From positions 53,899-73,898 of the IMG/VR virus record IMGVR_UViG_3300032282_002939: a stretch of 20,000 nt of DNA; one strand, 5' to 3'. A program made the position numbers and the translations under genes. Position 1 is the first letter of the stretch. Each line of letters begins with the position of its first letter. The notes under the pieces are model-generated. The model saw only the letters and a program-made list of their open reading frames with translations, was not told the origin of the DNA and ran no database searches. Below are positions 3,942 to 20,000 of the stretch, in pieces. Origin of the DNA: an uncultured virus (IMG/VR IMGVR_UViG_3300032282_002939) (lineage: Duplodnaviria; Heunggongvirae; Uroviricota; Caudoviricetes).

Positions 3942-3951
3942 GTGTGTTTTC

Positions 3952-4539: not shown

Positions 4540-4543
4540 ATTT

Positions 4544-5263: not shown

Positions 5264-5265
5264 AT

Positions 5266-5699: not shown

Positions 5700-5737
5700 T
5701 TAAAAATGATAGCGGTTGAATTTATAGAAACAGTCAT
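5528..5737 (-). CDS. Small fibre-associated protein, M[AT]VSIN paralogue 2
   Basis: 69 aa; MTVSINSTAIIFNNDSTSQNS N-terminus and a TNLGSG motif matching TNLASG of paralogue 3. Confidence 0.7.
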   Translation of the reverse strand: MTVSINSTAIIFNNDSTSQNSAGITTITNLGSGNTVYYSKSGSNAECRILFETTTGSITQNANVITFTI

Positions 5738-5743
5738 TTTTAT

Positions 5744-6775
5744 TTATCCGATGGTTATATGAGTAGAATTACCAGAAATAGTCAAATCTCCAGAAACTGC
5801 TATACTTCTCAAAGACGGAGTATTTTCCAAAGTAAATTGTTGTATTCTTGAATCATTAATATCACTTAAATACATTTTATGACCATTAGAAGAATATGCT
5901 ATTCCAGAAACATTTCCTAGACCAGCAGTTCTTCCTGCACTAGTGGAAATGCTTATATTTGCCACTAATGTAGCCGTATTAACTTGCCATGGGGTTGATA
6001 AATTATATTCATATATAATATCACTTGTATAGTCACCAATATACATTTTTGAACCAGTATTATTAAATTCTAATGCATTTGGTGATGTATTAGAAACAGA
6101 AACGTTTCCAACCAAAGTCGCTGTCGATAAAGTCCAGGCAGAAGACAAGTCGTATTCATGTACTTTATCTAAAGTTAAACCAAGTACATACATCTTGGTA
6201 CCATCTGATTTAAATTTCAAACTTGTTGGATTGGTTTCGCCTGGAGTAACACCAATTACTAAATTACTTGTCATTGAGACAGTTGCTGTATTTACTTCCC
6301 ATGCACTAGAAACAGCATATTGAACTATTTTTGAACTTGATCCTGCTTGATTTGTTAAAAATAATTTACTTCCATCAGAACTAAAATCCATTCCATATGA
6401 ATTTGTCATTGCTCCCAAACTAGAACCAGTAAAATCCGCTATACCTGAAGTATATACTTGAGTTGCAGTATCTATTTGCCAAGCAGTTGACAAATTAAAT
6501 TGTAACACTTGATCTGGACTGGAATCAAGTATATACATTTTTGTACCATCTGTTTTAAATCTTATTTCTTCTAAAGTTGTTCCATTACCACTTTTTTGTG
6601 TTTGTAGATATATTGTATTGGTTTGATATGCTACACCGTCTCCCGGAATAGAAATAATAGATACACCAGCAGTGCATGCAGTATTAGAATCAGCTAAGAA
6701 ACGTTGTGTTACCGCAGTATTTTGATAAGTTCCATCACTAAAAATTAACGCAGTAGAATTAATGGATACTGCCAT
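5744..6775 (-). CDS. Fibre-associated beta-propeller-like repeat protein, M[AT]VSIN paralogue 1 (candidate adhesin)
   Basis: Five approximately 50-aa repeats of consensus [GS]hxFxxDGxKMYh......h.[QE]Y.LS.AW.h.TAT (the fifth is partial), following the shared N-terminus. Confidence 0.75.
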   Translation of the reverse strand: MAVSINSTALIFSDGTYQNTAVTQRFLADSNTACTAGVSIISIPGDGVAYQTNTIYLQTQKSGNGTTLEEIRFKTDGTKMYILDSSPDQVLQFNLSTAWQIDTATQVYTSGIADFTGSSLGAMTNSYGMDFSSDGSKLFLTNQAGSSSKIVQYAVSSAWEVNTATVSMTSNLVIGVTPGETNPTSLKFKSDGTKMYVLGLTLDKVHEYDLSSAWTLSTATLVGNVSVSNTSPNALEFNNTGSKMYIGDYTSDIIYEYNLSTPWQVNTATLVANISISTSAGRTAGLGNVSGIAYSSNGHKMYLSDINDSRIQQFTLENTPSLRSIAVSGDLTISGNSTHITIG

Positions 6776-7565
6776 TCTTTATTTCCTCAATTTCTTTTCT
6801 TAATTCTTTAATGGATTCGACTAATAATCCAACAATATTTCCATAAGCAACAAATTTCATACCATTTTCATTTATACTGACCGCTTCTGGTAATACTTTT
6901 TCTACTTCTTGAGCTATCAATCCTGTACTGATAACATCAGTATTGATGAATTTAAATGTTATACCATTTATAGCATTTATTTTTTCTAATGGATTTTCAA
7001 TGATTTTTATGTCAGACTTTAATCTTTCATCTGAAGATGAAGAAATAACACCAAGAGAAGTCACATTTCCGTTAAAATAACCAGTACCATTGACTGACAA
7101 TTTATCGGCAGGCGCATTATTAGAAATACCAAAATTACCATTAGATACAAAATATGCTGCTGTGCCAATGGTTGCTGTGTTTGTTTGTAGAGTTAAAGCA
7201 TATGCGTTCACAAGAGAAGAATTTGCAGTGAACAGAGTTCCTGTTGAAACCGTTGTCGCATTAACAGTGCCAGTTGTATAAACGCCAGAAGTATTGGCTA
7301 TTACTGATGTCCCAACAGTATGCGAAGCGGCGTTGATAGTTCCAGTATGATATGCTCCAGTTGTATTAGCTATGAATGATGTGCTAATATTATAAGCAAC
7401 TGCATTAACAACACTAGAATTGGCGGTAAAAGAAGTACCAACAGTATGTGATGCAGCATTAATCACTCCTGTTGTGTTCGCTATATACAACCCAGAACTG
7501 TTGGCTACTATATTAGAAGAAGCTACTTGAAGTCCGTTTTTGACTAAAAAATCTCTATCTGCCAT
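6759..7565 (-). CDS. Tail fibre with C-terminal peptidase S74 intramolecular chaperone
   Basis: SSDERLKSDI autocleavage motif, GLIAQEVEKVLPEAV, VAYGNIVGLLVESIKEL coiled coil, and NAASHTVGTS repeats in the shaft. Confidence 0.9.
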   Translation of the reverse strand: MADRDFLVKNGLQVASSNIVANSSGLYIANTTGVINAASHTVGTSFTANSSVVNAVAYNISTSFIANTTGAYHTGTINAASHTVGTSVIANTSGVYTTGTVNATTVSTGTLFTANSSLVNAYALTLQTNTATIGTAAYFVSNGNFGISNNAPADKLSVNGTGYFNGNVTSLGVISSSSDERLKSDIKIIENPLEKINAINGITFKFINTDVISTGLIAQEVEKVLPEAVSINENGMKFVAYGNIVGLLVESIKELRKEIEEIKNGSIH

Positions 7566-7614: not shown

Positions 7615-8508
7615 TTACCACCAAGAAACTATAATAACTCCTGGACCACCATCACCACCCCTACCACCTCCTAATGAACCTCCAGCACCTCCGCCACCAC
7701 CCCCAGAACCAAAAGCACCAGCGCCGCCAGCACCCCCAACAAATATTGTGCTTGCACCCGCACCACCTCCGCCTGAACCTCCACAAGACATGAATGGTTT
7801 TGTGAACATTACACCAGCATTACCATTTGTTTGAGAAGCACCACCAGGAATAGTAGGTATAAATCCTGCACCTGTTATAGCACCACCAGCACCTGTGCTA
7901 GCACCACCTGTTCCACCTGCGCCACCTGATACTATAATATTAGCTATAGCACCCCAAGTAACCGCTGAAGGGCTAACGGCTGAGCTTTCATTCTGCGCAC
8001 CTCCAGCGGTACCTACTTGACCAATAGAAGTAGTGTATAGACCATAGTTATTCCATCTATCAGAAGTAGAGGCTGAACCAGCAGTGCCAGCAGCACCTAA
8101 TGCAATAGAACTTCCACCACCTCCTGCACCACCACCACTTGCACTTAAAACATAATCTCCTGTTGGACCTATGAGAGCAACATAGCTTACAGTTCCTGCT
8201 GTTCCGCCAGTAGAAGCAGCACCACCCGGACCTCCAGGTCCTGGTGAGACGTAAAGGGTATCTGGAATATAACTAGCAGGTAACATAAGAGTCGTTATTG
8301 CACCAGAACCTCCGCCACCACCGCCGCCTCTAGCAGTAGTAGATGAGTTAGTATGACCACCTCCACCTCCACCACCACCTCCAACAAGATAGAAATTGAA
8401 GTAACTTACACCTCTTGGTTTTATGAAAGTATAGACGTTTGTTGCTTCAGCAAAATAGATCGCATAGTTACCATCCATTGATCTCGGTAGATGTGAAAAA
8501 TCACTCAT
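7615..8508 (-). CDS. Glycine-rich virion/adhesin protein, paralogue 3 (gp38-like polyglycine motifs)
   Basis: MSDFSH start, KPRG, multiple GGGGGG runs, IPDTLYV, PFMSCGGSGGG, and a GGPGVIIVSWW end. Confidence 0.75.
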   Translation of the reverse strand: MSDFSHLPRSMDGNYAIYFAEATNVYTFIKPRGVSYFNFYLVGGGGGGGGGHTNSSTTARGGGGGGGSGAITTLMLPASYIPDTLYVSPGPGGPGGAASTGGTAGTVSYVALIGPTGDYVLSASGGGAGGGGSSIALGAAGTAGSASTSDRWNNYGLYTTSIGQVGTAGGAQNESSAVSPSAVTWGAIANIIVSGGAGGTGGASTGAGGAITGAGFIPTIPGGASQTNGNAGVMFTKPFMSCGGSGGGGAGASTIFVGGAGGAGAFGSGGGGGGAGGSLGGGRGGDGGPGVIIVSWW

Positions 8509-8509
8509 G

Positions 8510-9418
8510 TTAAAACCCCCAGATCATTACTAAACCAGAACCACCTCGTCCTCCTAAAGAAGAATTTCCAGAGTTGTTGATATAAGTACCGCCACCGCCG
8601 CCGCCAGAACCAATACCCGCATCACCTCCAGTTCCGCCATTACCAGTAGCGGCTCTACAACCTCCACCACCGGAACCTCCACAAGACATAAAAGGCTGCA
8701 TATAAGTAAGCCCAGATTGACCATTAGTTGCAGTTGAACTTGTGCTTCCAGCACCCCCACTGATTGTCGGCATAAAACCAGCACCAGTTATAGAACCTCC
8801 TGTACGCGCTGTTGGCGTTGTAGTACTACCACCACCGCTAGCACCACCGGATAAAATTATAGAACCCCATGTAATACCCGCAGATGGCTCTGATGTAGTT
8901 CCTGTAGCGCCCGCTTGCCCCGCAAATAAAGAATAACTTCCATAAGACCCAAGAATCATATTTGTAGCAGTTGCAGCAGCTCCCGCCGAACCACCGGCTG
9001 CGCTTCCGGCGCCACCGCCACTTGCATAACATATTACATACGCGGCAGTAGTATTTGGTTGTACAGAAATATAAGACGCGCCTCCGCTACCACCGGATGT
9101 ACCATGCGATCCATCGATCGTGCCAGTGTTAATTCCTGCTGATCCTCCAGCGCCTGAATTGACATATAGAATATCAGGAATTAGACTAGCATGGATTAAC
9201 ATAGTAGTAATTCCTCCTGAACCACCGCCTCCACCGCCAAAACCATTACTAGCTGAAGCTACTGAGCGTCCAGCACCGCCGCCTCCACCGCCACCTATAC
9301 ATACAATATAGATGCTTGTTATTCCTCTAGGCTTATTCCAGACTTGCCATTGAGAAATACTATAATATACTGAAAAGTTTGATCTGAGATTTTGTGAAAT
9401 ATGTGAGAAGTCTAACAT
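8510..9418 (-). CDS. Glycine-rich virion/adhesin protein, paralogue 2
   Basis: MLDFSH start, WQVWNKPRG, IPDILYV, PFMSCGGSGGG, and a GGSGLVMIWGF end. Confidence 0.75.
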   Translation of the reverse strand: MLDFSHISQNLRSNFSVYYSISQWQVWNKPRGITSIYIVCIGGGGGGGAGRSVASASNGFGGGGGGSGGITTMLIHASLIPDILYVNSGAGGSAGINTGTIDGSHGTSGGSGGASYISVQPNTTAAYVICYASGGGAGSAAGGSAGAAATATNMILGSYGSYSLFAGQAGATGTTSEPSAGITWGSIILSGGASGGGSTTTPTARTGGSITGAGFMPTISGGAGSTSSTATNGQSGLTYMQPFMSCGGSGGGGCRAATGNGGTGGDAGIGSGGGGGGTYINNSGNSSLGGRGGSGLVMIWGF

Positions 9419-9422
9419 GTTA

Positions 9423-10343
9423 CTACCATGATGTTATTATTACCAAGCCAGGACCGCCGTTACCGCCAGCACCACCGCCACTTGTACCTCCAGCACCGCC
9501 ACCACCGCCGCCGCATCCATATGTTGCATTACCACCTCTAGCACCTGCTGTTGTCGTTGAGTTAGATGAACCCCCACCTGACCCTCCAAGAAAAACTAAA
9601 GGGACTAAAAAACCAGATCCGGCTACTCCAGCACCCGGAGAAGCGCCACCAGAACCACCAGAAATTATGGTACTTTGAAAAACTGAAGGTAGTGGTGCAC
9701 CACCAGTTCCCAAGTTACCTCCCGCAACACCAGAACCGCCTCCACCACCAGCACCGCCAATAGTTATGTCACCTCCCATGGTTGTGGAACCCGCAGCAGT
9801 ACCGCTTACAGCACCACCAGCTCCACCAGTATTTCCCGCAACAGCGGTAAATATTGCAAAATTTGAAAAAGTAGCAGAAGTTGAAACCATAGCAACAGCA
9901 GCAGCACCACCAGCAGCATTGAGGGTAGTTGGACCTGCTGCACCCCCACCACCACCATTAGCATAAGCAAGTAAATATGCTGCTGTGGTGCTTGGATATA
10001 AACTTACATAACTAGCCCCGCCGTCAGAACCATTAACTCCTGAGCCAGTTGAACCAGCACCTCCTCGACCAACTTGAATGTATAATAAATCAGGTAATAA
10101 AAAAGCAGGCACTAATAATCTTGTTGTTGTTCCTTGCGCACCACCCCCGCCACCACCTCTAGAACCGGTAACTGAATTAGATCGACCGCCACCGCCGCCA
10201 CCGCCGCCACTAAGACAGAAGATATTGATCATAGAACAGTTGCGAGGTTTATTCCAAACTTGCCATTCTGTAGCTGCGTTCAATGCATAGAAGTAGTCTA
10301 TCTTTGCTGTCTGAGAATCAGAAACGTGAGAAAAATCAAGCAT
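9423..10343 (-). CDS. Glycine-rich virion/adhesin protein, paralogue 1
   Basis: MLDFSH start, WQVWNKPR, LPDLLYI, and a GGPGLVIITSW end. Confidence 0.75.
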   Translation of the reverse strand: MLDFSHVSDSQTAKIDYFYALNAATEWQVWNKPRNCSMINIFCLSGGGGGGGGRSNSVTGSRGGGGGGAQGTTTRLLVPAFLLPDLLYIQVGRGGAGSTGSGVNGSDGGASYVSLYPSTTAAYLLAYANGGGGGAAGPTTLNAAGGAAAVAMVSTSATFSNFAIFTAVAGNTGGAGGAVSGTAAGSTTMGGDITIGGAGGGGGSGVAGGNLGTGGAPLPSVFQSTIISGGSGGASPGAGVAGSGFLVPLVFLGGSGGGSSNSTTTAGARGGNATYGCGGGGGGAGGTSGGGAGGNGGPGLVIITSW

Positions 10344-10515: not shown

Positions 10516-10962
10516 TTAATAGTTACCTGCAATTACAATTGCCGCCCAGTATGTGTTCGTTGCTGGGGCTGAGTGGTTTGTCACCAATATAGCATAACTT
10601 GGAGGAAGTGCAACGTTCATCGGAACGTCGATAGGATATGTAGCAACTGTTGCATTAGCAGCAGAAACTGAAGGTAAAGCAACTTCTTGAAATAAAGTAC
10701 ATGTAGTATTATTAGCTGTAGTGTTAGATGAACTTATATAAATTCTTCCAACCGTAGCTGTAGTTGAAAGAGCAGCAGAGTTGGCTACGGGCGACCATCT
10801 AACACGCTGTACAAAACTTCCATTTGTTGCATCAGCAGTAAAAGCAAGAAACGTATCAGTACCTACTGTTCCTGTTCCATCACTTCTTGTTAAACCTGCT
10901 GTAACACGTGTTTGACCATAAGCCCCTACTCTACTATAAATTGGTATTTGATTACCAGCCAT
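10516..10962 (-). CDS. Putative fibre-tip adaptor, beta-rich protein
   Basis: 148 aa with an AGGAG RBS and an alternating beta-strand pattern. It lies between a fibre gene and the glycine-rich triad; the function is inferred from position. Confidence 0.55.
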   Translation of the reverse strand: MAGNQIPIYSRVGAYGQTRVTAGLTRSDGTGTVGTDTFLAFTADATNGSFVQRVRWSPVANSAALSTTATVGRIYISSSNTTANNTTCTLFQEVALPSVSAANATVATYPIDVPMNVALPPSYAILVTNHSAPATNTYWAAIVIAGNY

Positions 10963-10978
10963 CTAGTTTATCTCCTGT

Positions 10979-11740
10979 TTAAGCCATTGCTAAATTGTTA
11001 TAAAGAGCCACTATTTGACCCATAGTGTTTAAAATTGAACCATCATTAAAAATTATACCAGATGCAATTATATCTGTATTAACTGTGCTATTTCCAATAG
11101 AAATTGTGTTTGAAATAGTTAAAATTGCTGTAGTTTTATCAAAAGTTAAATTGGCATCACCGCCAAAAGAACCAGAGTTATTAAATTGTATTTGTGTATT
11201 TGAACCTCCAGGAGTCCCAGACCCACCACCTGATACTGTTGACCAATAAGCTGAACTACCATTAGTTGTTAATACTTGACCGGCAGTACCTGTGCTACCA
11301 TTCGCTGATACTGCAACACCACCAAGAGTAATGTTACCGTTAAATGTGGTCGGAACAGAAAGACTAAAAGCACTTGTAATACTATTAGCAAAAATTGACC
11401 ATATAGCCCTTTGCCCGTATGCCGTGTTTGTGCTATAGAAAACAAAGTTATCGTCAGTTTGTTGACGCATCGCAACAAAAGCTGATGTATTTACTGTTTG
11501 AAAATATATATTTTTATCATTATTAAGTGTTAAAGAATTTGTGATACGCTGACTGGTTATATTAGCACCAACTGTAATTAAATTTGTTCCATCTGATGTA
11601 TAGAGAATACCATCAGACATATTAAGAGCAAATTCGCCAGCAGCGATATATTGTGAATTTGTCGCATAAGATGCAGTTGTATTAGGAGTTCTTCCTGAAA
11701 CAGAAGTTCTCCTTACTTGAAACTTTGTATTAGCAGCCAT
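10979..11740 (-). CDS. Short tail-fibre-like protein with Mtd_N-like N-terminal module
   Basis: FQVRRTSVSGRTP...AAGEFALNMSDGILY N-terminus, plus SANGSTGTAGQVLTTNG..YW and PGGSNTQIQFNNSGSFGG fibre motifs. Confidence 0.75.
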   Translation of the reverse strand: MAANTKFQVRRTSVSGRTPNTTASYATNSQYIAAGEFALNMSDGILYTSDGTNLITVGANITSQRITNSLTLNNDKNIYFQTVNTSAFVAMRQQTDDNFVFYSTNTAYGQRAIWSIFANSITSAFSLSVPTTFNGNITLGGVAVSANGSTGTAGQVLTTNGSSAYWSTVSGGGSGTPGGSNTQIQFNNSGSFGGDANLTFDKTTAILTISNTISIGNSTVNTDIIASGIIFNDGSILNTMGQIVALYNNLAMA

Positions 11741-11770
11741 GTGGCTTCCTCTTTAATGGCATGTGCCGAG

Positions 11771-11995
11771 TTATTGTTCAAAACCGTCTGTATCAGAAGT
11801 ATTTACTTCTTTTTTATTTATTCTCTTTTCTTTTTTCTCTAATTGTTTTTCTAATTCAACAATTCTTTGATTTAAAGAAATATTTGTAGCTTCAGAAAAC
11901 TTCAATTGTGCTTTCATAAAAACATTATTTTTCATCAATTCTTCAATTTCTTTAAATAAAGTTTCAATATAAACATTGACAAACTCAGGTGACAT
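11771..11995 (-). CDS. Small coiled-coil protein (possible fibre assembly chaperone)
   Basis: 74 aa, charged and heptad-like (LNQRIVELEKQLEKK), located between two fibre genes. Confidence 0.6.
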   Translation of the reverse strand: MSPEFVNVYIETLFKEIEELMKNNVFMKAQLKFSEATNISLNQRIVELEKQLEKKEKRINKKEVNTSDTDGFEQ

Positions 11996-12025
11996 GGGTA
12001 TATTCCATTATTAAATTAATTATTT

Positions 12026-13831
12026 TTAAAAAGTTCCGCCATCAAGTATTCCCCAAGTCACAAGAGAATTGTTGACTTGGAGAACATAACCTTCAGTTCC
12101 TAATGAAAGTTTTGAAAGACCATTACTTGTATTACCAACAAGTAAATCTTGTGAAGTAAATGTATTCCATCCTGTACCACCAGAAGTTCCAACAAGAGCA
12201 GTTGTAAGAGTCAAAGAATTGGCAGCTAATGCGGCAGTAACAGATGAATTAGCATTGATTTGAATAGCAGTAGAATTCACAACAAATACGGAACTGTTAT
12301 TGCCATATGGCATTAAGTATGCTTGTAGAGTAGCAGTTCCCGAATTTGCGCTAGTATCAATTGTGGACGATGTATTTGGATTTGTATTTGATCCAAATAA
12401 CCAGAAGAATGGAGCAGAATTAGTTGATTTTGCTGCAATTCTTGCAAGACCAGCATACCAAATAGCAGAAGAATTACCGGCAGGAGAATACCAACCAGCA
12501 TCAACAACATCAGTTGTTGTATTATTAGAGGCTAATTCTATGACATTATCTTTGATAATTAATGAAGTAACATTGACAGAAGTAAAAGTACCAGAAACAA
12601 TTAAGTTTCCTGAAAGCGTTAGGTCTGTTAATGAAAGAACAGAATTTACAAACGCACCAGATGTGTTTACTACAAGAGTATTATCACCATTTTTTACAGA
12701 TATACCAGAAGAATTAGAAACTATACCGTTATTAGCTAGAACATTGATGCCAGAAGAATCAACTGAAATACCATTTGCTTGTTTAGCCCATATCCCAGTA
12801 GAATTTGCTACGATGCCGTTATTGGCAATTGCATAAAGAGTTCCAGTGCTAGTAATTGTACCACCACCAATACCATTTGATGTAGCAACGGAAGTTACTG
12901 TACCAGTGGAATCATTTTTCCAATATGGTGATCCAGTTGCACCATTTGAAGCTAGTATTTGACCGGCAGAACCAACTCCACCATTTGCTGATAACTGAAT
13001 ATTTGAAAGAGTTAATTGAGTAGAATTGGCAATAAAGTTTGTGCCAACTGTAATCGATGCAGCGTTAACTGTTCCTGTTGTATTAGCAACAAATATACCA
13101 GATGTATTGGCTATTACAGATGCACCAACAGTAATTAGTGCGGAATTAACTGATGATGAAAGATTCGCGGTAGAGCCAATTATATTTGCATATAACGTAG
13201 TAGTAGAAATTGTACCAGCATTAACTGTTGAAACACCAGCTGTGTTTTGAACAACAACCTGACCAGTTGTTTGTGTAGTTGAACTATTACCAACACTAAT
13301 AGCACCTGTATTCGCAATAGTCACTGTTGGAGAAGTAGTTGTATTTCCAACCCAATAATATGCAGTGCTATTAATTACAGCGTTTGCAGCAATATTAATT
13401 GTTGAGGAAAATGTTATGGTATTTTGAAAGGTTTGTGTATTAGTCCATGTGTACTGCGCCGCAGTATTTACACCAACAGAAGCAGATGAAACCCAATAAA
13501 GATTTGAAGAAGCACCACCAGAAACTAGAAAATAACCAGCAGTGCCGGTACTACCATTAGCAGAAATTGTTTGCGTTGTTCCAACAAAGGCCAAATTCCC
13601 AATTTGAATTTGATTTATACCAGATGTTGAGTTGGCAACAAGAGCCTGATTAGCAGTAAGAGTTCCTGGGCTTCTTACCCCACCAATTGGAACCACTGTT
13701 CCGCCATCTGTAGAACCAATAAAGAGAACACCAGAACCACCTGTAGCATTAGAATATGCTAATTCCCCTGGATTAAGAGAAGCAGGTGATGCTGTAGCAG
13801 CGCTTCTTTTGATTTGAATTCTATTAACCAT
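12026..13831 (-). CDS. Tail-fibre-like protein (601 aa), Mtd_N-like N-terminus and DGGTF C-terminus
   Basis: IQIKRS..SPASLNPGELAY...LFIG N-terminus; Ser/Thr/Asn/Gly-rich repeats (ANNGIVANSTGI); ends GYVLQV....WGILDGGTF. Confidence 0.8.
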   Translation of the reverse strand: MVNRIQIKRSAATASPASLNPGELAYSNATGGSGVLFIGSTDGGTVVPIGGVRSPGTLTANQALVANSTSGINQIQIGNLAFVGTTQTISANGSTGTAGYFLVSGGASSNLYWVSSASVGVNTAAQYTWTNTQTFQNTITFSSTINIAANAVINSTAYYWVGNTTTSPTVTIANTGAISVGNSSTTQTTGQVVVQNTAGVSTVNAGTISTTTLYANIIGSTANLSSSVNSALITVGASVIANTSGIFVANTTGTVNAASITVGTNFIANSTQLTLSNIQLSANGGVGSAGQILASNGATGSPYWKNDSTGTVTSVATSNGIGGGTITSTGTLYAIANNGIVANSTGIWAKQANGISVDSSGINVLANNGIVSNSSGISVKNGDNTLVVNTSGAFVNSVLSLTDLTLSGNLIVSGTFTSVNVTSLIIKDNVIELASNNTTTDVVDAGWYSPAGNSSAIWYAGLARIAAKSTNSAPFFWLFGSNTNPNTSSTIDTSANSGTATLQAYLMPYGNNSSVFVVNSTAIQINANSSVTAALAANSLTLTTALVGTSGGTGWNTFTSQDLLVGNTSNGLSKLSLGTEGYVLQVNNSLVTWGILDGGTF

Positions 13832-13855
13832 TTAACTATTGCCTTTTGTTTTTTT

Positions 13856-13863
13856 TATTTAGT
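13856..13863 (-). promoter_or_regulatory. Candidate variant late promoter ACTAAATA
   Basis: Intergenic TAAATA core 24 nt upstream of the 601-aa fibre ATG. Confidence 0.5.
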
Positions 13864-14135
13864 TAAAAAGTTCCGCCATCAATATCACCATCAATATTAG
13901 AAAAATTCATTTTTTGAACAACATAGGTATCAGAAGAACTGTCGTAAATTAGAGTAGCACCATTTGCTTCTGTAGTAGCATTAACATCTTGTAAACGATC
14001 TAGTCTTGTAGCACCACCAACAGTTAATGCAGGAGTTGGTTTGAGTGTTACTGGAGTTGTTGTGTCAATAAAACCAGCAGTAGCGTTAGTCGCTATATGT
14101 ATTGTTCTTCTTCTTGCAACAACTACATTAGTCAT
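13863..14135 (-). CDS. Small connector-like virion protein ending in DGGTF
   Basis: 90 aa with an LDRLQDV...GATLIYD....YV fibre motif and C-terminal IDGGTF. Confidence 0.65.
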   Translation of the reverse strand: MTNVVVARRRTIHIATNATAGFIDTTTPVTLKPTPALTVGGATRLDRLQDVNATTEANGATLIYDSSSDTYVVQKMNFSNIDGDIDGGTF

Positions 14136-14137
14136 TT

Positions 14138-14464
14138 TTATCTCGTGACTTGTGGGGTGACTGTTACAATACCTTCAACAATTCTAGAAGTAGTTGTACC
14201 ATCATTTATCTCTACATCATATACATATCTACCTGAAGTTAAAGAGCCAGTTTGGTTGGCGCTTAAAGATAAAGTAACGGTTCCAGTGCTTACATTAATA
14301 GATGTAGTAAAATCTGTTGCATTAGAAGATGTATACCATTTTCTAATTTGAGAATTAGCGGTATACCCACTTAAATTTAAAGAATCGCCGTTCTCATCAG
14401 TTAAAGATAAGTCAGTAGAAAATGTTGCACCTTGATCTATAACTAAATTAGCTTTAGTTGCCAT
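14138..14464 (-). CDS. Conserved beta-sandwich fibre-attachment-like protein (BppU-N/LtfC-like)
   Basis: NLVIDQGATF, LNLSGYTANSQIRK, LSLSANQT..L..GRYVYDVEI and RIVEGIVTVTPQVT, a pattern recalled from aquatic T4-like phages. Confidence 0.7.
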   Translation of the reverse strand: MATKANLVIDQGATFSTDLSLTDENGDSLNLSGYTANSQIRKWYTSSNATDFTTSINVSTGTVTLSLSANQTGSLTSGRYVYDVEINDGTTTSRIVEGIVTVTPQVTR

Positions 14465-15267
14465 TATACTATGACCCTAGCATATCTTAATGTGGTTGAT
14501 GAAACAGAAGCAGGAGTGAATTGAACTGCGACGTTACCAGAAGCAATTGTTGCTGAAAATGTACCAACAGAAGAAGATGGAATTATTGAACCATATTCTG
14601 TAACATATGCAGTTGATCCATCATGAACAACTAGAAGTTTTGTCAAATGATATGCAGAACTTGTATTTGCTTGGACCAAATACTCTGCACCAAGATATGT
14701 TGAAGTTGAAAAAGAATCTATATTTACTGTTGATGTAGAAGAAGTTGTGATAGTTCCATTTGATGCTGGATTATAAACAGTTGCAATTGTCGCCCAAGAA
14801 CCATTAGCGTTTAAATAGTAATTTCCACCAGTCCATTGAGCTGATGTAGGTACAGTAAATGATATATTAGATGTGGAGTTACTAATAACTACACTAGAAG
14901 AATTTATAATAGCATTAGCAGTCGAACTGCCTATCTTTAGAGATGTATTAGTTATTAGCGTATTATTAATTTGTACAGAAGATGCATTAACAGTGACATT
15001 TCCAGACGAATTGCCAACTTTAATGTTTGTTAAATCGATAGAAGTAGAACTTATTGTATTAGAAACAGTAACAGCCGTTGGAGAAACGGTTGAGTTGGCA
15101 GTCGAATTTCCAGAAGTAAAGGTACCCGATATGCCAGCATTACCAGTTGCTATATTGGAATTAACCGTAACAGCCTGAGTTGTCATTGCATATGCAAGTT
15201 CGTTTGTTCTAGTACGCCAATAATCAAATGTATTTGTATTAGCGGTATTTGCTACTGTTACAGTCAT
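14464..15267 (-). CDS. Fibre-like structural protein
   Basis: N-terminal NTFDYWRTRTNEL, an S/T/N-rich shaft, and a C-terminal IDSF...Y..AEYLVQ...LVVHDG..AYVTEYG domain recalled from T4-like virion fibre proteins. Confidence 0.7.
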   Translation of the reverse strand: MTVTVANTANTNTFDYWRTRTNELAYAMTTQAVTVNSNIATGNAGISGTFTSGNSTANSTVSPTAVTVSNTISSTSIDLTNIKVGNSSGNVTVNASSVQINNTLITNTSLKIGSSTANAIINSSSVVISNSTSNISFTVPTSAQWTGGNYYLNANGSWATIATVYNPASNGTITTSSTSTVNIDSFSTSTYLGAEYLVQANTSSAYHLTKLLVVHDGSTAYVTEYGSIIPSSSVGTFSATIASGNVAVQFTPASVSSTTLRYARVIV

Positions 15268-15458: not shown

Positions 15459-18400
15459 TTAAATCTGCAAACAAATTGCTCTCACATCATTTAGTCTTGG
15501 AACTTTAGCGGCATTAGATGAAAGAAGAACAATCTTCAGAGCAACTTCTTTATAACCAATAAATCTAGAATTGGCACTGTTTCTATATTCAACAATACCG
15601 TCATTCCCCGGAGATGAAAACACATAGTAAATAGCGGCTGAATTTGAAGCAGTTAAGTCGCTCATACCTTTATCAACAGTCAAAGAAGTATCACTTGCAA
15701 TATTTGTTATTGTTCTTATTGCTGTATAGTTAGAAGAAACTATTTTAATAGTGTCTCCGACAACAAAATTAGTTTTGAATGCTGTTCCAGTTCCAGTAAT
15801 AGTTTGAGATGTATTGGCAATACTAATTGTTCCTGCCAAAGCATTATATGTGTCAACACCTGTATTTGCAAAAGCTCCCTGTGCAACAGAATTGCTTGAA
15901 GGCATATTAAATTCATATTCAATAAAATCATTCACATCAGTTGGTGAGCTATATTTTGTATCACTATCGTTACTGTATTCCAGAACAGACCATACTTTAT
16001 CATCAAATGATTCGGCGTCTTCTTCGTTTCTAAATTTAGCATAAACCTTAATATCAGTGTCGCCGGGTCTATATGCTGTCATATAAACTTTTAAGTCTTC
16101 TGCTTCTTGACCGTCAGCTAAAACCACTCTTTTACTAATATATTTTGAATATGAATTACCATATTTTGTATGTTCATTTGTAACACTGTTATTAATAATA
16201 TTTTGAATATACAAAGAAGCTTTTCTTGTCAAAGACACAACAGGAGATACATAATCAGATTCAGTTGAAAGAGTAATCTGATATCTTGATGATTTTCCTG
16301 TTTGATTTGATTTACTAAGAACTCTTCTTTCTTTGTCTAAGAATTCATATTCATAACCATTAGTGACAGTAATATAACTGGCGTCGTCAATTAATGTTGC
16401 TGATGTTGAGGTTCCTTTATAACCAAAGGAAAGAGATGTTCTTGCTGGTTGAAGAGAACCAAAATTTGGAGCAACAGCATGATATGTCAGATTATCAACT
16501 GTTTGAATTGTGCCATATGCAATCTTATTTGCATCAGTTAGCAATCCTGTATTAGTTGGATCAGAAACTCTGAATATAGCGAAATATGGATTAATTGCAG
16601 TTCCTGCTGTATTAGAAAAACCACCAGTAGAAGAATCTAGGTAAATTTTACCATTTACTTCATCAAAGAATTGAACTCTACCATAATAACTTGTATTTGC
16701 TGAATTTAGTGTTCCATTCGCATAAACATTTGCGCTATAAAGCATATCACCAACTTCAATAGTAACTGAGCTATTTGCTTTATTGAGAGATGTTACACTT
16801 AGATAATCATCATTTTCATTTTCAAAAATAGCTGTTCCTGATGTTGATGAGAATTTAGCTCTATAGATATTGAATTTCAAATCTTCTTTTTGTATAGCTG
16901 TCCAAGTTTTTCTATTCGCTGAAATGAATAAAACACCAGAATAAGGATTTGAAAACACTTGTTCATTTGTAACAACATCAAATCCACCAGTTTCTCCAAC
17001 CCAAACATTGTAATTAGGAGAATTGCCATCTGGTTGAATAACAACAGCATAATCTGTGCTAGTTAACAAATATACAGGATAATCTAGTGTGAATACAGTC
17101 TCAGTAGCAGCAGTCGCGCTTGTATTAATAGAAGATGCTGCTAGATATGATTTACCAATTATTTTTGATGCATCAGGGAAACCATTATTCATTTCAACAA
17201 TGAAAACAGAGCAACCAAGAGAACTGTCTTTTGATTGGAAATAAACACCAATTTGTTTGATGAATACACCAGAAATATCAGAAGGAAGATTTTCAATTCT
17301 AAATGATTGAGAAATTGGATCGTCAGGATTCCAAGCTGGTGCTGGTGGTGGAATTGTTCTGGTTTCTACGTAACTTTCATGTTTCACTGTTGGATTAGTG
17401 ACATTTATAGATGTAGAGCCTTTAGTTACAGAAATATTAGAAGCACTGTAAATAGCCAAGGCTTTTGTAGTTACTGCTGAAACACCAGTAGTTAAATTAT
17501 CAACATTCACAAGTTGAAAATTTCTATCGCCAACTCTGAAAGAAGAAGCGGGAATTTTGAATACACCGCAAATAAATCCATTTGAATCAGAAACTAGTGC
17601 ATCACCAAAGTTTCCTTTTTGTGTTACAATTGAATCTTCTTTACCAAATTCTGGATTTGTTGTTCCTGAAAGAATGCCAGGAGCACAATAAGCATCTACA
17701 TTAGTATCGTCAAAGAAAGCATGAAGTGTAGTGTTTGGTTTTAAATTATATGCGACAAATGAAACCAATCTAGAACGCATATATGGTTGAACAGAAATAT
17801 CTTGTACGTAACTACCTGTATCTATTTTTTGAGATAGCGTATCAAGAGAAATAGTTGTTACTGTTCTTTCTTGTGTAGATGAACTTGTTGTTGTTCTATT
17901 GCGATTTCTAATACTTGTTCCAGAGAATGGTTCAATATTTCCATTTCTATCAACGTGTTGTGTTGTTGAACTTGGGCCAACTGTTCTCCATTCACCATAA
18001 TTAGTGCCCCATGTAATATTTGAGAAGTCTTCCCATGGTGCAGACAAATCTAGATTTACGTTAATATTAGGAGTAACAGTTTCATCTTTAAAATAATCTT
18101 CTCTTGGATAAAGGTCAATTAGACCATTCCATTGCCAGACAGACTCGCATGCATTTCTGTATTTTGTTGCAAATCTTTGAGAAATGTATAATTCAGAACT
18201 ATTGTTTAACATGACAACAGAACCATAATTATTAACACCAGAAGATGTTGTATTAGAGAAAGTCAGATCAACATTGTGTTTTTTGAAATATGATCTTGCA
18301 ACTGTTGCTATTGGATCAATGGCAATTTTATACTCAAAATCGGTAACATCACCCAAGTTATGAGAATTAAATGGATCAGCGAAAATGCCATTTTTAAATC

Positions 18401-20000
18401 TATTCAAACCATTGGCATCAGGAATTGTTAAATCTCTTGCTTGTTGTTCAAGAGTGTTTAACACTGTATAATATTCAACTCTCTTAATACGTTCTTCGAG
18501 AGCACCAATATCTTTCATAGTATAACGACGATTGGTTTTTAGATTAATTTTTGAAGAAATATCACGACGATTATATGCTTCTGCTTCTCTTTGTGTTATT
18601 GAAGGATAAGGAGGAACATAAATTTGTGCTATTGTGCTTTGGTCATTTTCAACAAAAGGAACTCTTGGATTTTGTGAAGGTTCACCTTTTTGAACGACAA
18701 AATTTCCTATAGAGCTTAGTGTTAATAGATCATATCTTGGAAGATAATATTCAAAATCAGCAGTGAAATTGCTATCTGGAGCAAACAAATGTTGACCATT
18801 AACATCAACAGTAAATGTATTTGTTGAGACTGGATTTACTGTTGCGCTGGCAAATGTTGTTGTGCTAATAGCAGTATTTGATTTGATAAATCTTAAATCA
18901 ATCGCATCTCTTAAATCGATACTGTTATAAGATGGTATTTGAACAGTTTGAATGGCGGTTGTATTTGCTGTATTTGCATCATCGATTGGATATGAATTGA
19001 CATTGAAATATCCTAGACCAGATGTTGTATTAGCTACAAAATGATCTAATTCTACTAGAATATAAGAAGAAGAATTAATTTGAGAAGAATAATCTGGTTT
19101 TATATAAAGTTTTGCATGATCATAGTATTCATCTCTTTGGCCATTATCAAAAGTAAACCAATATGAACGCTCTGGATTTGATGTATTAGCAGCTGTACCG
19201 ATATAAACATTTCTTATTTGAGCAACATCAGATAAACCCAAATCCCAAGGACCAACACTTGTTGCTGAATTATTAGAGCAATAGATTGTAACAAAACGAT
19301 TTTTTCTAATTTCTTTTTGTATTGGTGAAGTCACTGTTCTGTAAACTGGATAAGATGCATTCACAGTATTTGAAGCATCAAAAGTGTACCCAGTATTGAA
19401 AACAAATGAAGATGTAGTTGATATTTGAACATTTGATATCGGTAGTGAAGAACCTCCAGTAAAATATCTTTTAAAATTAGAAGATGTGTTTGTAGACCCA
19501 GGAACGGTATCAACAATCATTTGTGTATTTGTAGAAATATTTGTAACACCAACGACCCAAGTATTTCCACCACCCATATCAATTCTTACAAGAGAACCAA
19601 CGGCTAATTGTGTTTGGAATAATGTACTGGTGCCGATAATTGTTGTATTACCAGAATTTACAGCAACAGTTCCAGTTAAATTTGCAGTGTATGTATTAGA
19701 AGCAACAAATACACTAAATCCATCTGTAGAAGAACCAGTTAAGGTTGATCCAGCAGAGTATGGTAATTGATTTGTGCCGCCTGTAGATGCATCAATTGTA
19801 ATTGACACTGCACCAGCAGTTGTTAAAGAACCGCTTTTTATTTGATTGAAAGTAAAATTTGAATCAGAAATTGTTTCAATAGCAGTTATACCGGTGTCAA
19901 AAACAAGGGTTTTTGATGAATCTTTAAGAACTGCTTTATCGTTTTCAAGAACAATATCTGCTCTAGCAGTGTCAGCAACAACTATACTTTTCACATTATC
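15459..20000 (-). CDS. Large virion structural protein, DUF4815/VrlC-like (5' end outside the window)
   Basis: More than 1500 aa, with the frame open to the window edge. Motifs include YYLPRYD, NRRYTMKDIGALEERIKRVEYY, NRFKNGIFADPF, PYMRSR, DPISQSF, W...QKEDLKFNIYRAKF and VPRLNDVRAI. Confidence 0.85.
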   Translation of the reverse strand, partial: DNVKSIVVADTARADIVLENDKAVLKDSSKTLVFDTGITAIETISDSNFTFNQIKSGSLTTAGAVSITIDASTGGTNQLPYSAGSTLTGSSTDGFSVFVASNTYTANLTGTVAVNSGNTTIIGTSTLFQTQLAVGSLVRIDMGGGNTWVVGVTNISTNTQMIVDTVPGSTNTSSNFKRYFTGGSSLPISNVQISTTSSFVFNTGYTFDASNTVNASYPVYRTVTSPIQKEIRKNRFVTIYCSNNSATSVGPWDLGLSDVAQIRNVYIGTAANTSNPERSYWFTFDNGQRDEYYDHAKLYIKPDYSSQINSSSYILVELDHFVANTTSGLGYFNVNSYPIDDANTANTTAIQTVQIPSYNSIDLRDAIDLRFIKSNTAISTTTFASATVNPVSTNTFTVDVNGQHLFAPDSNFTADFEYYLPRYDLLTLSSIGNFVVQKGEPSQNPRVPFVENDQSTIAQIYVPPYPSITQREAEAYNRRDISSKINLKTNRRYTMKDIGALEERIKRVEYYTVLNTLEQQARDLTIPDANGLNRFKNGIFADPFNSHNLGDVTDFEYKIAIDPIATVARSYFKKHNVDLTFSNTTSSGVNNYGSVVMLNNSSELYISQRFATKYRNACESVWQWNGLIDLYPREDYFKDETVTPNINVNLDLSAPWEDFSNITWGTNYGEWRTVGPSSTTQHVDRNGNIEPFSGTSIRNRNRTTTSSSTQERTVTTISLDTLSQKIDTGSYVQDISVQPYMRSRLVSFVAYNLKPNTTLHAFFDDTNVDAYCAPGILSGTTNPEFGKEDSIVTQKGNFGDALVSDSNGFICGVFKIPASSFRVGDRNFQLVNVDNLTTGVSAVTTKALAIYSASNISVTKGSTSINVTNPTVKHESYVETRTIPPPAPAWNPDDPISQSFRIENLPSDISGVFIKQIGVYFQSKDSSLGCSVFIVEMNNGFPDASKIIGKSYLAASSINTSATAATETVFTLDYPVYLLTSTDYAVVIQPDGNSPNYNVWVGETGGFDVVTNEQVFSNPYSGVLFISANRKTWTAIQKEDLKFNIYRAKFSSTSGTAIFENENDDYLSVTSLNKANSSVTIEVGDMLYSANVYANGTLNSANTSYYGRVQFFDEVNGKIYLDSSTGGFSNTAGTAINPYFAIFRVSDPTNTGLLTDANKIAYGTIQTVDNLTYHAVAPNFGSLQPARTSLSFGYKGTSTSATLIDDASYITVTNGYEYEFLDKERRVLSKSNQTGKSSRYQITLSTESDYVSPVVSLTRKASLYIQNIINNSVTNEHTKYGNSYSKYISKRVVLADGQEAEDLKVYMTAYRPGDTDIKVYAKFRNEEDAESFDDKVWSVLEYSNDSDTKYSSPTDVNDFIEYEFNMPSSNSVAQGAFANTGVDTYNALAGTISIANTSQTITGTGTAFKTNFVVGDTIKIVSSNYTAIRTITNIASDTSLTVDKGMSDLTASNSAAIYYVFSSPGNDGIVEYRNSANSRFIGYKEVALKIVLLSSNAAKVPRLNDVRAICLQI

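What the first reader, a model, noticed from the sequence alone, without database searches (positions are those of the whole stretch)
10979..15267. Candidate plug-and-socket code for a multi-segment, possibly branched fibre
Seen: gene order alternates matching termini. The 90-aa protein ends DGGTF; the 601-aa fibre starts IQIKRS..P..L..GELA and ends DGGTF; the 253-aa fibre starts FQVRR...P...GEFA; the adaptor and glycine-rich triad follow. Separately, the 267-aa protein ends in a VHDG..TEYG domain and the S74 fibre starts with a short DFLVKNGL peptide. Inference: DGGTF is a docking peptide for the Mtd_N-like module of the next segment, and TEYG-domain/KNGL may be a second pair. That would give two appendages, each ending in a paralogue triad and extendable by adding genes.
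Basis: inference. Interest (0 to 1): 0.75.

Follow-up and report, generated by a model that had tools for sequence, protein, structure and literature searches.

The report
Peptide joints chaining phage tail fibres
In this uncultured T4-like phage, separately encoded tail-fibre pieces probably clip end to end: a short peptide ending one protein fits the cap that starts the next, the same kind of joint that links gp36 to gp37 in phage T4.

Summary
Only 3 of 372 ORFs in the 74-kb contig carry them, and those 3 are neighbours.

Joint 1 (...LDGGxF end, then IQIKRS..GELA start) is well supported:
- Conservation: in 62 distinct related loci, 104 of 107 testable plug-ending genes had a socket-starting gene within three genes. 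The other 3 were regex misses.
- Position: the motifs are strictly terminal and never fused.
- Chain ends: the plug is absent from all 35 chain-ending fibres.
- Complex model: it pairs residues 78-90 of the 90-aa protein with residues 1-27 of the 601-aa fibre. Score 0.81, best control 0.19.
- Homology: the socket is homologous to the T4 gp37 N-terminus, which binds gp36.

"Mtd_N-like" was not supported by Pfam.

It accompanies every gp37-type socket.

Joint 2 is half supported. The TEYG domain has the fold of the T4 gp9 C-terminal domain, the fibre connector (Z 13.8). Its KNGL partner is unproven.

This is a new variant of a known kind. Binding has not been measured.

The parts
15459..19994 (-). 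VrlC-like large baseplate protein (1511 aa from the first start; the ORF runs off the window). Context only.
   Evidence: Pfam DUF4815 at E 1.2e-19. tblastn hits to proteins annotated VrlC or adsorption-associated tail protein in T4-like phages. PMC7029224 (passages) reads VrlC as the stand-in for gp7 in these phages, and the region downstream of it as the host recognition cluster.
14464..15267 (-). 267-aa fibre-like protein. It has a conserved N-terminus (TFDYWRTRTNELA) and a conserved C-terminal 'TEYG' domain. Relatives range from 190 to 1416 aa.
   Evidence: Translation. The family comparison across loci shows conserved ends around a shaft of variable length.
14467..14778 (-). C-terminal domain of the 267-aa protein (residues 164-267). 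It has the fold of the T4 gp9 C-terminal domain and is a candidate fibre socket.
   Evidence: AlphaFold2 model built on 47 sequences, mean pLDDT 90. The top Foldseek hit is 1qex_A at E 6e-6. VIA-align gives Z 13.8, rmsd 1.9 over 103 aligned residues, matching gp9 residues 169-281.
14138..14464 (-). 108-aa protein of the family annotated 'L-shaped tail fiber protein assembly' (T5 p132-like by PHROG name). Used as a motif-free anchor to collect related loci.
   Evidence: phrog_1084 at E 2.4e-27 and phrog_3304 at E 8.8e-23. 218 relatives were found in IMG/VR and the best 80 were kept.
13863..14135 (-). 90-aa 'plug' protein: an N-terminal part, one fibre-repeat unit, then the C-terminal peptide.
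   Evidence: In alignment A1 (49 sequences), Y64, G87, G88 and F90 are invariant. A profile search found 2877 representatives at E 0.001 or better. All 47 small proteins among the best 150 end in the plug motif.
13866..13904 (-). Plug 1: residues 78-90 of the 90-aa protein (SNIDGDIDGGTF).
   Evidence: These are the residues at the interface in the complex model.
12026..13831 (-). 601-aa fibre segment 1, with a socket at its N-terminus and a plug at its C-terminus.
   Evidence: Translation; alignments A2 and A5.
   Evidence: Interface residues are 1-11, 14, 16-17, 20, 25 and 27. Q6, I7, S10 and G22 are invariant. It is homologous to the gp37-type cap: hhalign probability 99.1, E 1.7e-18.
12029..12046 (-). 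Plug 2: the last six residues of the 601-aa fibre (LDGGTF).
   Evidence: In A5 (48 sequences), D76, G77, G78 and F80 are invariant. This region shares only its last 23 residues with the 90-aa family.
11771..11995 (-). 74-aa coiled-coil protein. It is a constant companion of gp37-type sockets, and its role is unknown.
   Evidence: No Pfam or PHROG family. All 61 gp37-type sockets in the loci are preceded by a gene of 55-200 aa. 39 of 46 distinct members end in F or Y, against 16 of 395 other ORFs. The Atlas search returned only unnamed viral helical clusters.
10979..11740 (-). 253-aa fibre segment 2, the end of the chain. It has a gp37-type N-terminal socket (about residues 1-58, 11567-11740) and no plug.
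   Evidence: BLASTP against T4 gp37 residues 1-100 gives E 3e-7. The A4 profile against the gp37 N-terminus gives hhalign probability 97.4, E 1.5e-11.
10516..10962 (-). Function not established here.
   Evidence: No Pfam or PHROG family. Proteins of about 105-121 aa follow short distal fibres in Mosig, L021, L064 and L071.
7615..10343 (-). Three paralogous glycine-rich proteins (306, 302 and 297 aa).
   Evidence: Pfam Gly_rich_2 at E 4.9e-11, 5.3e-8 and 1e-9. GC is 0.42-0.49 here, against about 0.30-0.36 in the flanking regions.
6759..7565 (-). 268-aa fibre with a C-terminal Peptidase_S74 chaperone domain and the N-terminal peptide DFLVKNGL (7524-7565).
   Evidence: Pfam PF13884 at E 1.7e-15. 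The same kind of N-terminus occurs in 6 distinct ORFs in the loci.

Best explanation
The window holds the fibre block (the 'host recognition cluster') of an uncultured T4-like myophage of the pelagiphage/cyanophage kind. Several separately encoded trimeric proteins are joined head to tail by one reusable joint.

The proximal partner ends, exactly at its carboxyl end, in a short peptide (hydrophobic-D-G-G-x-F). The distal partner begins with a small beta-rich cap (IQIKRS...GELA...IG). The modelled contact has the plug strand lying alongside the N-terminal IQIKRS strand of the cap, in parallel register. The conserved Asp of the plug sits near the conserved Arg of the cap.

The inferred order is: 90-aa plug protein, then the 601-aa fibre, then the 253-aa fibre. 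The 90-aa protein probably sits on the virion together with the neighbouring 108-aa protein. The 253-aa cap is of the T4 gp37 type, so the second joint is the counterpart of the T4 gp36-gp37 joint. A 74-aa coiled-coil protein always accompanies that joint, but its role is open.

[quoted passage not shown] It probably holds the N-terminus of another fibre. Which fibre that is remains unknown.

Shown here: the motifs, their conservation and strictly terminal position, the homologies, and the fold match.
Inferred: the binding, the order of assembly, and presence in the virion.
For: 1. Motifs and chance. Only 3 of 372 ORFs in the contig carry the motifs, and they are neighbours. The probability of two DGGTF ends by chance is about 2e-7.

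2. Conservation around a motif-free anchor. 80 IMG/VR loci were collected with the 108-aa protein. 79 had an anchor and 62 were distinct. Among their 643 plus-strand ORFs, 114 end in the plug motif. Of the 107 with enough downstream sequence, 104 are followed by a socket-starting gene: 59 as the next gene, 40 with one gene between, 5 with two between. The 3 apparent misses are sockets that my regex rejected (GEQA; IYVKRTS). The same is true of L068 and L077. Of 102 socket genes examined, 101 have a plug gene 1-3 genes upstream.

3. The motifs are strictly terminal. No fused plug-socket form was found, and only one internal plug-like hit.

4. The plug marks continuing segments, not fibres in general. 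In 35 of 35 complete chains the last fibre lacks it. Chains hold 2 sockets (30 loci), 3 sockets (3 loci) or 1 socket (2 loci).

5. The plug is specific to the small-protein family. Among the best 150 library hits to the 90-aa profile, 47 of 47 small proteins end in the plug. Only 1 of 103 long proteins that share the repeat unit does.

6. Complex model of three copies of 601(1-120) with three copies of the 90-aa protein.
- ipSAE was 0.81, 0.81 and 0.82; the best of 3 controls was 0.19.
- In the tool's calibration this mark was reached by 116 of 157 solved complexes and 2 of 215 mismatched pairs. Those counts hold only roughly here, because my own alignments and 3+3 chains were used.
- The three runs agree in at least 97% of their contacts, and the partner's pLDDT is at least 70.
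- The interface is fibre residues 1-11, 14, 16-17, 20, 25 and 27 with plug residues 78-90.
- Residues 4-10 pair in register with residues 83-90.

7. The pass is unlikely to come from memory of a solved relative. No PDB chain matches A1, A2 or A4 by sequence.

8. Homology to a known joint.
- The two socket types belong to one family (hhalign probability 99.1).
- The 253-type socket matches the T4 gp37 N-terminus (BLASTP E 3e-7; hhalign probability 97.4, E 1.5e-11).
- The gp36 proteins of T4, KP15 and Ac42 end in DFGYY, DFGSY and DYGTY, close to D-G-G-T-F.
- The review PMC3004832 (passages) states that trimeric gp36 binds the N-terminal region of gp37.

9. The same module occurs in named phages: Pelagibacter phage Mosig, P-SSM2, S-CAM9 and Limnohabitans phage DC31, and P-HM1.

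10. One paired change. Plug D86 goes with socket R9 in 43 of 49 pairs. In the 3 pairs where R9 is Y, D86 is H or Q.

11. The gp9-like fold of the TEYG domain.
Against: - No binding was measured. The complex score is the model's own confidence, and the calibration does not cover 3+3 chains with user-supplied alignments.
- The 62 loci are relatives of one another, so the adjacency counts show conservation within a family. They are not independent co-occurrence.
- Adjacency is not universal. In S-T4 the plug protein is followed directly by gp13, and no fibre-1-type socket was found in the genome at E 1 or better. In S-T4, S-CAM9 and P-SSM2 the only gp37-type socket genes lie far away and are not preceded by a plug gene.
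- Some relatives have weak plugs: Mosig's small protein ends NAGAF and DC31's ends ESGQY.
- The plug region shows no profile similarity to the gp36 C-terminus (probability 0.35). The likeness is six residues seen by eye.
- Covariation as a whole is no higher at the modelled contact than far from it (mean z 0.90 against 0.99). The D/R to H,Q/Y switch sits in one clade, so it is probably a single event.
- The joint between the 601-aa and 253-aa proteins, with the 74-aa protein, was not modelled.
- The window's own 74-aa protein ends ...GFEQ, not in F.
Confidence: 0.68

Rival explanations
1. The terminal motifs are conserved for reasons other than mutual contact. The C-terminal peptide could be a folding or trimer-registration tag. 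The N-terminal cap could be a common anchor by which each fibre binds its own site on the baseplate. On this reading the fibres sit side by side, not in series.
For: C-terminal registration elements are common in fibres; the T4 fibritin foldon is one (recalled from general knowledge, no call). S-T4 has a plug protein but no adjacent socket gene. P-SSM2 and S-CAM9 fibres end in a plug with no socket gene next to them. Overall covariation is not enriched at the modelled contact.
Against: Chain-ending fibres of the same socket family lack the plug in 35 of 35 complete chains, so it is not needed for folding. Only 1 of 103 long fibres with the same repeat unit ends in the plug. The complex model places exactly these termini together, well above its controls. 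The T4 gp37 N-terminal region is known to bind gp36 rather than the baseplate (PMC3004832).
Confidence: 0.12
2. There is one appendage, not two. The gp9-like domain at the end of the 267-aa protein carries the next genes in order (108 aa, 90 aa, 601 aa, 253 aa). The S74 fibre with the KNGL start attaches somewhere else.
For: The order is constant in the related loci: gp9-like-domain gene, then the 108-aa gene, then the plug protein, then fibre 1. The KNGL-type genes are never adjacent to the gp9-like gene; 6 distinct ORFs were examined. Their likeness to the T4 gp34 N-terminus is not significant (E 0.12; hhalign probability 1.4).
Against: Nothing was tested on contacts among the 267-aa, 108-aa and 90-aa proteins. 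In T4 the partner of gp9 is a fibre N-terminus (PMC3004832). The KNGL start aligns in register with the gp34 start, though weakly.
Confidence: 0.25
3. The 90-aa protein is not a virion part. It is an assembly factor that caps the socket of the 601-aa fibre transiently. The 74-aa coiled coil does the same at the gp37-type socket, through its own acidic-aromatic end.
For: Both proteins are small and sit just upstream of a socket gene. 31 of 46 distinct coil proteins end in [DEN]x[FY], against 3 of 395 other ORFs. Fibre chaperones are often encoded beside fibre genes; T4 gp38 is one (annotation).
Against: The 90-aa protein contains a standard fibre-repeat unit that occurs 4-23 times in long fibre proteins. 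The 601-aa fibre carries the same peptide at its own end. The family is present once in each of 5 named genomes, always next to the p132-like gene.
Confidence: 0.1

Closest known systems
Phage T4 long tail fibre, the distal half-fibre joint gp36-gp37
   Same: A separately encoded proximal trimer joins the N-terminal region of the distal fibre, and gene order matches physical order. The window's 253-type cap is homologous to the gp37 N-terminus. gp36 of T4, KP15 and Ac42 ends in D-[FY]-G-x-Y, like D-G-G-x-F.
   Different: Here the joint is used at least twice in series. It is started by a 90-aa protein rather than by gp36, and there are no gp34 or gp35 homologues in the block. The proximal proteins are unrelated to gp36 outside the last six residues. 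A small coiled-coil gene precedes the gp37-type gene. No solved structure of the joint was found by sequence.
Phage T4 gp9, the baseplate-fibre connector (PDB 1QEX)
   Same: The C-terminal domain of the 267-aa protein has the fold of gp9 residues 169-281: Z 13.8, rmsd 1.9 over 103 residues. In T4, gp9 holds the N-terminal end of gp34 (PMC3004832; preprint 10.64898/2026.03.06.709160, passages).
   Different: Sequence identity is 16%. In relatives the domain ends proteins of 190 to 1416 aa with a different N-terminus. The partner is unknown.
Phage T5 collar protein p132 with the L-shaped fibre pb1
   Same: The 108-aa protein matches the PHROG family named for this protein (E 8.8e-23). p132 is an Ig-like structural protein that anchors the fibre's N-terminal residues (PMC10038345, passages).
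   Different: T5 is a siphophage. No PDB sequence match to p132 was obtained; the only hit was another 'structural protein' at E 0.0033. The fold and the ring were not tested.
Bordetella phage BPP-1 Mtd N-terminal domain (Pfam PF18454) and streptococcal prophage hyaluronidase HylP N-terminus
   Same: A small N-terminal cap on a trimeric fibre with a similar-looking motif. The fold alignments are in register at the N-terminus: Mtd residues 5-49 and HylP residues 6-61.
   Different: No Pfam hit at E 10. Z is only 2.2-2.5 and the best Foldseek E is 0.54. Membership is not shown.
Branched receptor-binding-protein systems of Klebsiella and Ackermannviridae phages (recalled from general knowledge; only search listings were seen)
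   Same: Short conserved terminal peptides or domains dock one fibre or spike onto another.
   Different: In those systems an N-terminal peptide docks onto a gp10-like branching domain, side by side. Here a C-terminal peptide meets an N-terminal cap, end to end.

Membership tests
T4 gp36-gp37 type fibre joint | The distal partner starts with a gp37-type N-terminal region. | tested here: met
   BLASTP of the 253-aa protein against T4 gp37(1-100) gives E 3e-7. hhalign of A4 against the gp37 N-terminus gives probability 97.4, E 1.5e-11. The 601-aa cap belongs to the same family (probability 99.1).
T4 gp36-gp37 type fibre joint | The proximal partner is homologous to gp36. | tested here: not met
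   hhalign of A5 against the gp36 C-terminal 80 aa gives probability 0.35. Only the terminal hexapeptide pattern D-x-G-x-aromatic is alike, seen by eye.
T4 gp36-gp37 type fibre joint | Physical binding of the proximal C-terminus to the distal N-terminus. | not testable with these tools
   Only a model exists: ipSAE 0.81 against a best control of 0.19, for the pair 90-aa protein with 601(1-120). The pair 601-aa with 253-aa was not modelled.
Mtd_N (Pfam PF18454) | A match to the Pfam model. | tested here: not met
   No Pfam family at E 10 or better for the first 60 aa of the 601-aa and 253-aa proteins, nor for the whole proteins at E 0.01.
Mtd_N (Pfam PF18454) | The fold of the Mtd N-terminal domain. 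| tested here: inconclusive
   Monomer model with pLDDT 76. Mtd entry 1yu1 scores Z 2.3, rmsd 3.0 over 43 aligned residues. All hits score Z 3.5 or less.
T4 gp9 (baseplate-fibre connector) | The C-terminal beta-sandwich domain fold. | tested here: met
   1qex_A scores Z 13.8, rmsd 1.9 over 103 aligned residues, matching gp9 residues 169-281. Foldseek gives E 6e-6. The model has pLDDT 90.
T4 gp9 (baseplate-fibre connector) | An N-terminal coiled coil bound to the baseplate, and a fibre N-terminus bound by the C-terminal domain. | not tested
   Only the last 130 residues were modelled. The candidate partner peptide is not significantly like the gp34 start.
Peptidase_S74 intramolecular chaperone fibres | A C-terminal PF13884 domain. 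| tested here: met
   The 268-aa protein, residues 178-229, E 1.7e-15.
T5 p132-like fibre anchor | Membership of the PHROG family named for it; Ig-like fold; ring around the tail. | tested here: inconclusive
   phrog_3304 at E 8.8e-23. There was no PDB sequence match to p132. The fold and the assembly were not tested.

The most novel reading that the evidence does not exclude
Fibre assembly in a large group of aquatic T4-like phages follows a grammar that can be read from sequence. A free carboxy-terminal peptide (h-D-G-G-x-F) adds as a strand to the IQIKRS strand of a gp37-N-type cap, with an Asp-Arg contact. Any protein ending in the peptide can carry any protein starting with the cap. Fibre length and tip are therefore set by how many such genes are present and in what order. 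gp37-type joints need a third, so far undescribed partner: a small trimeric coiled coil with its own acidic-aromatic end. Together with gp9-type sockets at fibre ends, this would allow the architecture of the adsorption apparatus of uncultured phages to be predicted from genomes alone. It would also give the first atomic picture of the T4 gp36-gp37 joint.
Probability: 0.35. Interest if true: 0.7.

Novelty: new variant of a known kind. Interest (0 to 1): 0.55.

Why it matters
Tail fibres decide which bacteria a phage can infect. For the abundant marine and freshwater T4-like phages (pelagiphages and cyanophages), almost nothing is known about how the many fibre genes in the 'host recognition cluster' fit together.

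If the terminal peptide and the cap really form a portable joint, three things follow:
- The order and number of fibre segments can be read from gene sequences of uncultured phages.
- The T4 gp36-gp37 joint, known biochemically for decades, gets a concrete residue-level model.
- The joint becomes a natural cut-and-paste point for studying how fibres are exchanged between phages.

I found the motif pair in no paper. One search looked for six plug strings; 16 papers hold one of them and, of the 15 listed, none is a phage paper by title. No PDB chain matched by sequence. Earlier notes of this same scan report the same kind of joint in other genomes, so within the scan it is a recurring observation rather than a new one.

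Tried and rejected
- Pfam on the N- and C-terminal pieces at E 10: no family.
- PDB sequence searches with the 601-aa protein and with profiles A1, A2 and A4: only chance-level rows or none.
- Foldseek and VIA-align on the monomer model of the 601-aa N-terminus: nothing above Z 3.5. HylP and Mtd appear only in the noise.
I used tblastn on named phages instead.
- Profile A5 (fibre C-terminus) on five named genomes: it was too insensitive to count plugs. It matched in 2 of 5 genomes, and one of those matches was an internal repeat. The idea that plug and socket numbers match per genome therefore rests only on the genes I looked at by eye.
- Search for fused plug-socket proteins, and for a KNGL peptide fused after the TEYG domain: none.
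- Mutual information between plug and socket columns: no overall enrichment at the contact.
- hhalign of the KNGL-type N-termini against the T4 gp34 N-terminus: probability 1.4.
- Atlas search on the 74-aa protein: only unnamed viral helical clusters.
- Own-scan look-ups by place and by sequence: nothing.
- Only one complex job was allowed. The pairs 601/74/253, 267/268 and 267/108/90 and the cross-pair controls were therefore not run.


Full report
**What is in the window.**
All genes lie on the minus strand. In transcription order they are:
- a VrlC-like giant protein (DUF4815; VrlC hits in T4-like phages);
- a 60-aa virion protein (phrog_473);
- a 267-aa protein;
- a 108-aa protein of the PHROG family named 'L-shaped tail fiber protein assembly';
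- a 90-aa protein;
- a 601-aa fibre;
- a 74-aa coiled-coil protein;
- a 253-aa fibre;
- a 148-aa protein;
- three Gly_rich_2 proteins;
- a 268-aa Peptidase_S74 fibre.

The window is the end of a 73.9-kb contig. The nearest named phage is Pelagibacter phage Mosig, which has the same module. A paper on pelagimyophages calls the region after VrlC the 'host recognition cluster' and says its first genes are tail fibres (PMC7029224, passages). In the passages I saw, it does not describe terminal motifs.

Only these 3 of 372 ORFs in the contig carry the motifs, and they are neighbours. Two DGGTF ends by chance have a probability of about 2e-7.

**Conservation.**
To avoid selecting on the motifs, I collected loci with the 108-aa protein, which carries neither motif. 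This gave 218 relatives in IMG/VR, of which the best 80 were kept. 79 had an anchor and 62 were distinct.

In those 62 loci, 114 of 643 plus-strand ORFs end in [DNHQE]GG.[FYW]. Of these, 7 lacked downstream sequence. Of the other 107, 104 were followed by a socket-type start: 59 as the next gene, 40 with one gene between, 5 with two between. The 3 apparent exceptions are sockets that my regex missed, as are L068 and L077.

No protein carries an internal or fused plug-socket form. Complete chains contain one (2 loci), two (30 loci) or three (3 loci) socket-bearing fibres. In all 35, the last fibre lacks the plug.

These loci are relatives of each other. The counts therefore show a conserved rule that survives changes in chain length. 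They do not show independent co-occurrence.

**The 90-aa protein.**
Its family has Y64, G87, G88 and F90 invariant. A profile search of 1.84 billion representatives found 2877 proteins at E 0.001 or better. Among the best 150, there were 47 small proteins, all ending in the plug. The other 103 were long fibres that repeat the middle of the profile 4-23 times, and only 1 of them ends in the plug. So the protein consists of a short N-terminal part, one ordinary fibre repeat, and the plug. It shares only its last 23 residues with the end of the 601-aa fibre.

**Predicted contact.**
I modelled three copies of 601(1-120) with three copies of the 90-aa protein, each with a 49-row alignment.
- The score was 0.81, 0.81 and 0.82, against a best control of 0.19.
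- In the tool's calibration this mark was reached by 116 of 157 solved complexes and 2 of 215 mismatched pairs. Those counts hold only roughly here, because my own alignments and 3+3 chains were used.
- The runs agree in at least 97% of their contacts, and the partner's pLDDT is at least 70.
- The interface is fibre residues 1-11, 14, 16-17, 20, 25 and 27 with plug residues 78-90.
- Residues 4-10 pair with residues 83-90 in rising register, like a parallel strand pair.

No PDB chain matches either partner by sequence. A pass from memory of a solved relative is therefore unlikely.

In the 49 paired rows, plug D86 goes with socket R9 in 43. The 3 rows with Y9 have H or Q at position 86. Two rows are N/R and one is E/R. 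This fits an Asp-Arg contact, but it is one clade. Overall covariation is no higher at the contact than elsewhere.

**Link to T4.**
The lead came from earlier notes of this scan and from my own recollection. I then tested it on the T4 record.
- T4 gp37 starts [33 protein letters not shown].
- The 253-aa protein aligns to it at E 3e-7. The profile of 45 such N-termini aligns at probability 97.4, E 1.5e-11.
- gp36 ends in DFGYY in T4, DFGSY in KP15 and DYGTY in Ac42, close to DGGTF. A profile comparison finds no wider homology.
- The review PMC3004832 (passages) states that trimeric gp36 binds the N-terminal region of gp37.

The joint here is thus the T4 gp36-gp37 kind, reused in series and started by a small protein. 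Pfam does not recognise the caps as Mtd_N. The fold comparison with Mtd and HylP is in the noise, at Z 2.2-2.5.

**Wider distribution and counter-examples.**
The module (p132-like gene, small plug protein, socket...plug fibre) occurs in P-SSM2, S-CAM9, P-HM1, Mosig and the Limnohabitans phage DC31. Each of the five genomes searched (P-HM1 was not among them) has one member of the 90-aa family.

S-T4, however, has the plug protein directly before gp13, with no fibre-1-type socket in the genome at E 1 or better. In S-T4, S-CAM9 and P-SSM2 the gp37-type socket genes lie elsewhere and are not preceded by a plug gene. Adjacency is therefore common but not obligatory. Two small proteins have weak plugs: NAGAF in Mosig and ESGQY in DC31.

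**The 74-aa protein.**
In the loci, 61 of 61 gp37-type sockets are preceded by a small gene of 55-200 aa, while 75 of 78 fibre-1-type sockets directly follow a plug gene. These counts are over all 79 loci and are not deduplicated.

Of 46 distinct small proteins, 39 end in F or Y and 31 end in [DEN]x[FY]. Among 395 other ORFs the figures are 16 and 3. The window's copy runs two residues past the F. It has no family. It could be a third part of the joint or a chaperone. I could not test this.

**The second pair.**
The 267-aa protein belongs to a family with a conserved N-terminus, a shaft of 190-1416 aa, and a conserved C-terminal domain. A model of that domain (pLDDT 90) matches the C-terminal domain of T4 gp9 best: Foldseek E 6e-6, and Z 13.8, rmsd 1.9 over 103 residues, matching gp9 residues 169-281. 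The next best is a Klebsiella phage baseplate chain at Z 11.5.

gp9 connects the T4 baseplate to the N-terminal end of gp34 (PMC3004832; preprint 10.64898/2026.03.06.709160, passages).

Its partner is not established. The KNGL-type start aligns in register with the gp34 start, but not significantly (E 0.12; probability 1.4). It occurs in only 6 distinct ORFs in the loci and never next to the gp9-like gene. No fused form exists.

The constant gene order (gp9-like gene, 108-aa gene, 90-aa gene, fibre 1) allows a different reading, in which this socket carries the whole chain.

**Verdict.**
Joint 1 is very probably real, and it is a new variant of the T4 gp36-gp37 joint. The 'Mtd_N' label should be replaced by 'gp37 N-terminal type'. 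Joint 2 has a credible socket but an unproven plug. Branching and the role of the paralogue triads remain untested. Nothing here measures binding.

Noticed in passing
window 11771-11995 (-): A 74-aa coiled-coil gene lies between the plug-ending fibre and the gp37-type socket gene. Its family precedes 61 of 61 gp37-type sockets in the loci. 39 of 46 distinct members end in F or Y, against 16 of 395 other ORFs. In P-SSM2 it sits directly before gp13, the position of fibritin (wac) in T4 as I recall the T4 gene order.
   Followed up: partly
L009, L017, L028, L030 and others: Other recurring end/start pairs appear at the far ends of chains. Fibres ending ...KFKFKLEE[MVI]x are followed by genes starting MTLFVGNSTVNS. 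Ends ...G[SA]R[VLF]V[IV][VI] are followed by MS[IE]... starts. Ends ...LYGS[YF]LPDVR are followed by MAQNQxLGTFGQ. These may be further joint types.
   Followed up: no
window 10516-11740 (-); L021, L064, L071, L001: Short distal fibres ending in a hydrophobic A-I-V-F-A-I-A-L-G-like tail are followed by a protein of about 105-148 aa (window...IVALYNNLAMA, then the 148-aa protein). T4 gp37 ends ...NIAFNYIVRLA just before gp38. This may be a counterpart of the gp37-gp38 arrangement.
   Followed up: no
window 5266-6775 (-): A 343-aa protein with beta-propeller-type Pfam hits (SGL, Lactonase) and two small proteins (69 and 83 aa) share only their first 20 or so residues: M[AT]VSIN[SA]TA[LI]IF.... 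A common N-terminal peptide on three otherwise different proteins could be another docking tag.
   Followed up: no
window 7615-10343 (-): The three glycine-rich genes have GC 0.42-0.49, against about 0.30-0.36 in the flanking regions. This is mostly a codon effect of Gly and Ala richness. The reverse strand shows long proline-rich ORFs that are mirror artefacts.
   Followed up: no
window 2867-5284 (-): Holin-like (GTA_holin_3TM, just below the Pfam cut-off), Glyco_hydro_19 and 2OG-Fe(II) oxygenase genes follow the fibre block. This fits the mixed content described for pelagimyophage host recognition clusters (PMC7029224).
   Followed up: no
L089 2995-6135 (P-HM1): The giant protein annotated 'gp7 baseplate wedge subunit' in P-HM1 starts with a gp37-type socket (MATRIKLKRSTVAATVPTT...GEIALN). 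It follows a coil gene ending ...SPDDF. The gp7 label may be wrong for its N-terminus.
   Followed up: no
L016, L017, L019, L051: A gene of about 250 aa (starting MGTIHRSNKLEKYGFVYIWFDKKHKRYYIG or MEKYGFVYIWFDRKHKRYYIG) is inserted between the fibre-1 gene and the coil gene in some loci. It looks like a mobile insertion and was not identified.
   Followed up: no
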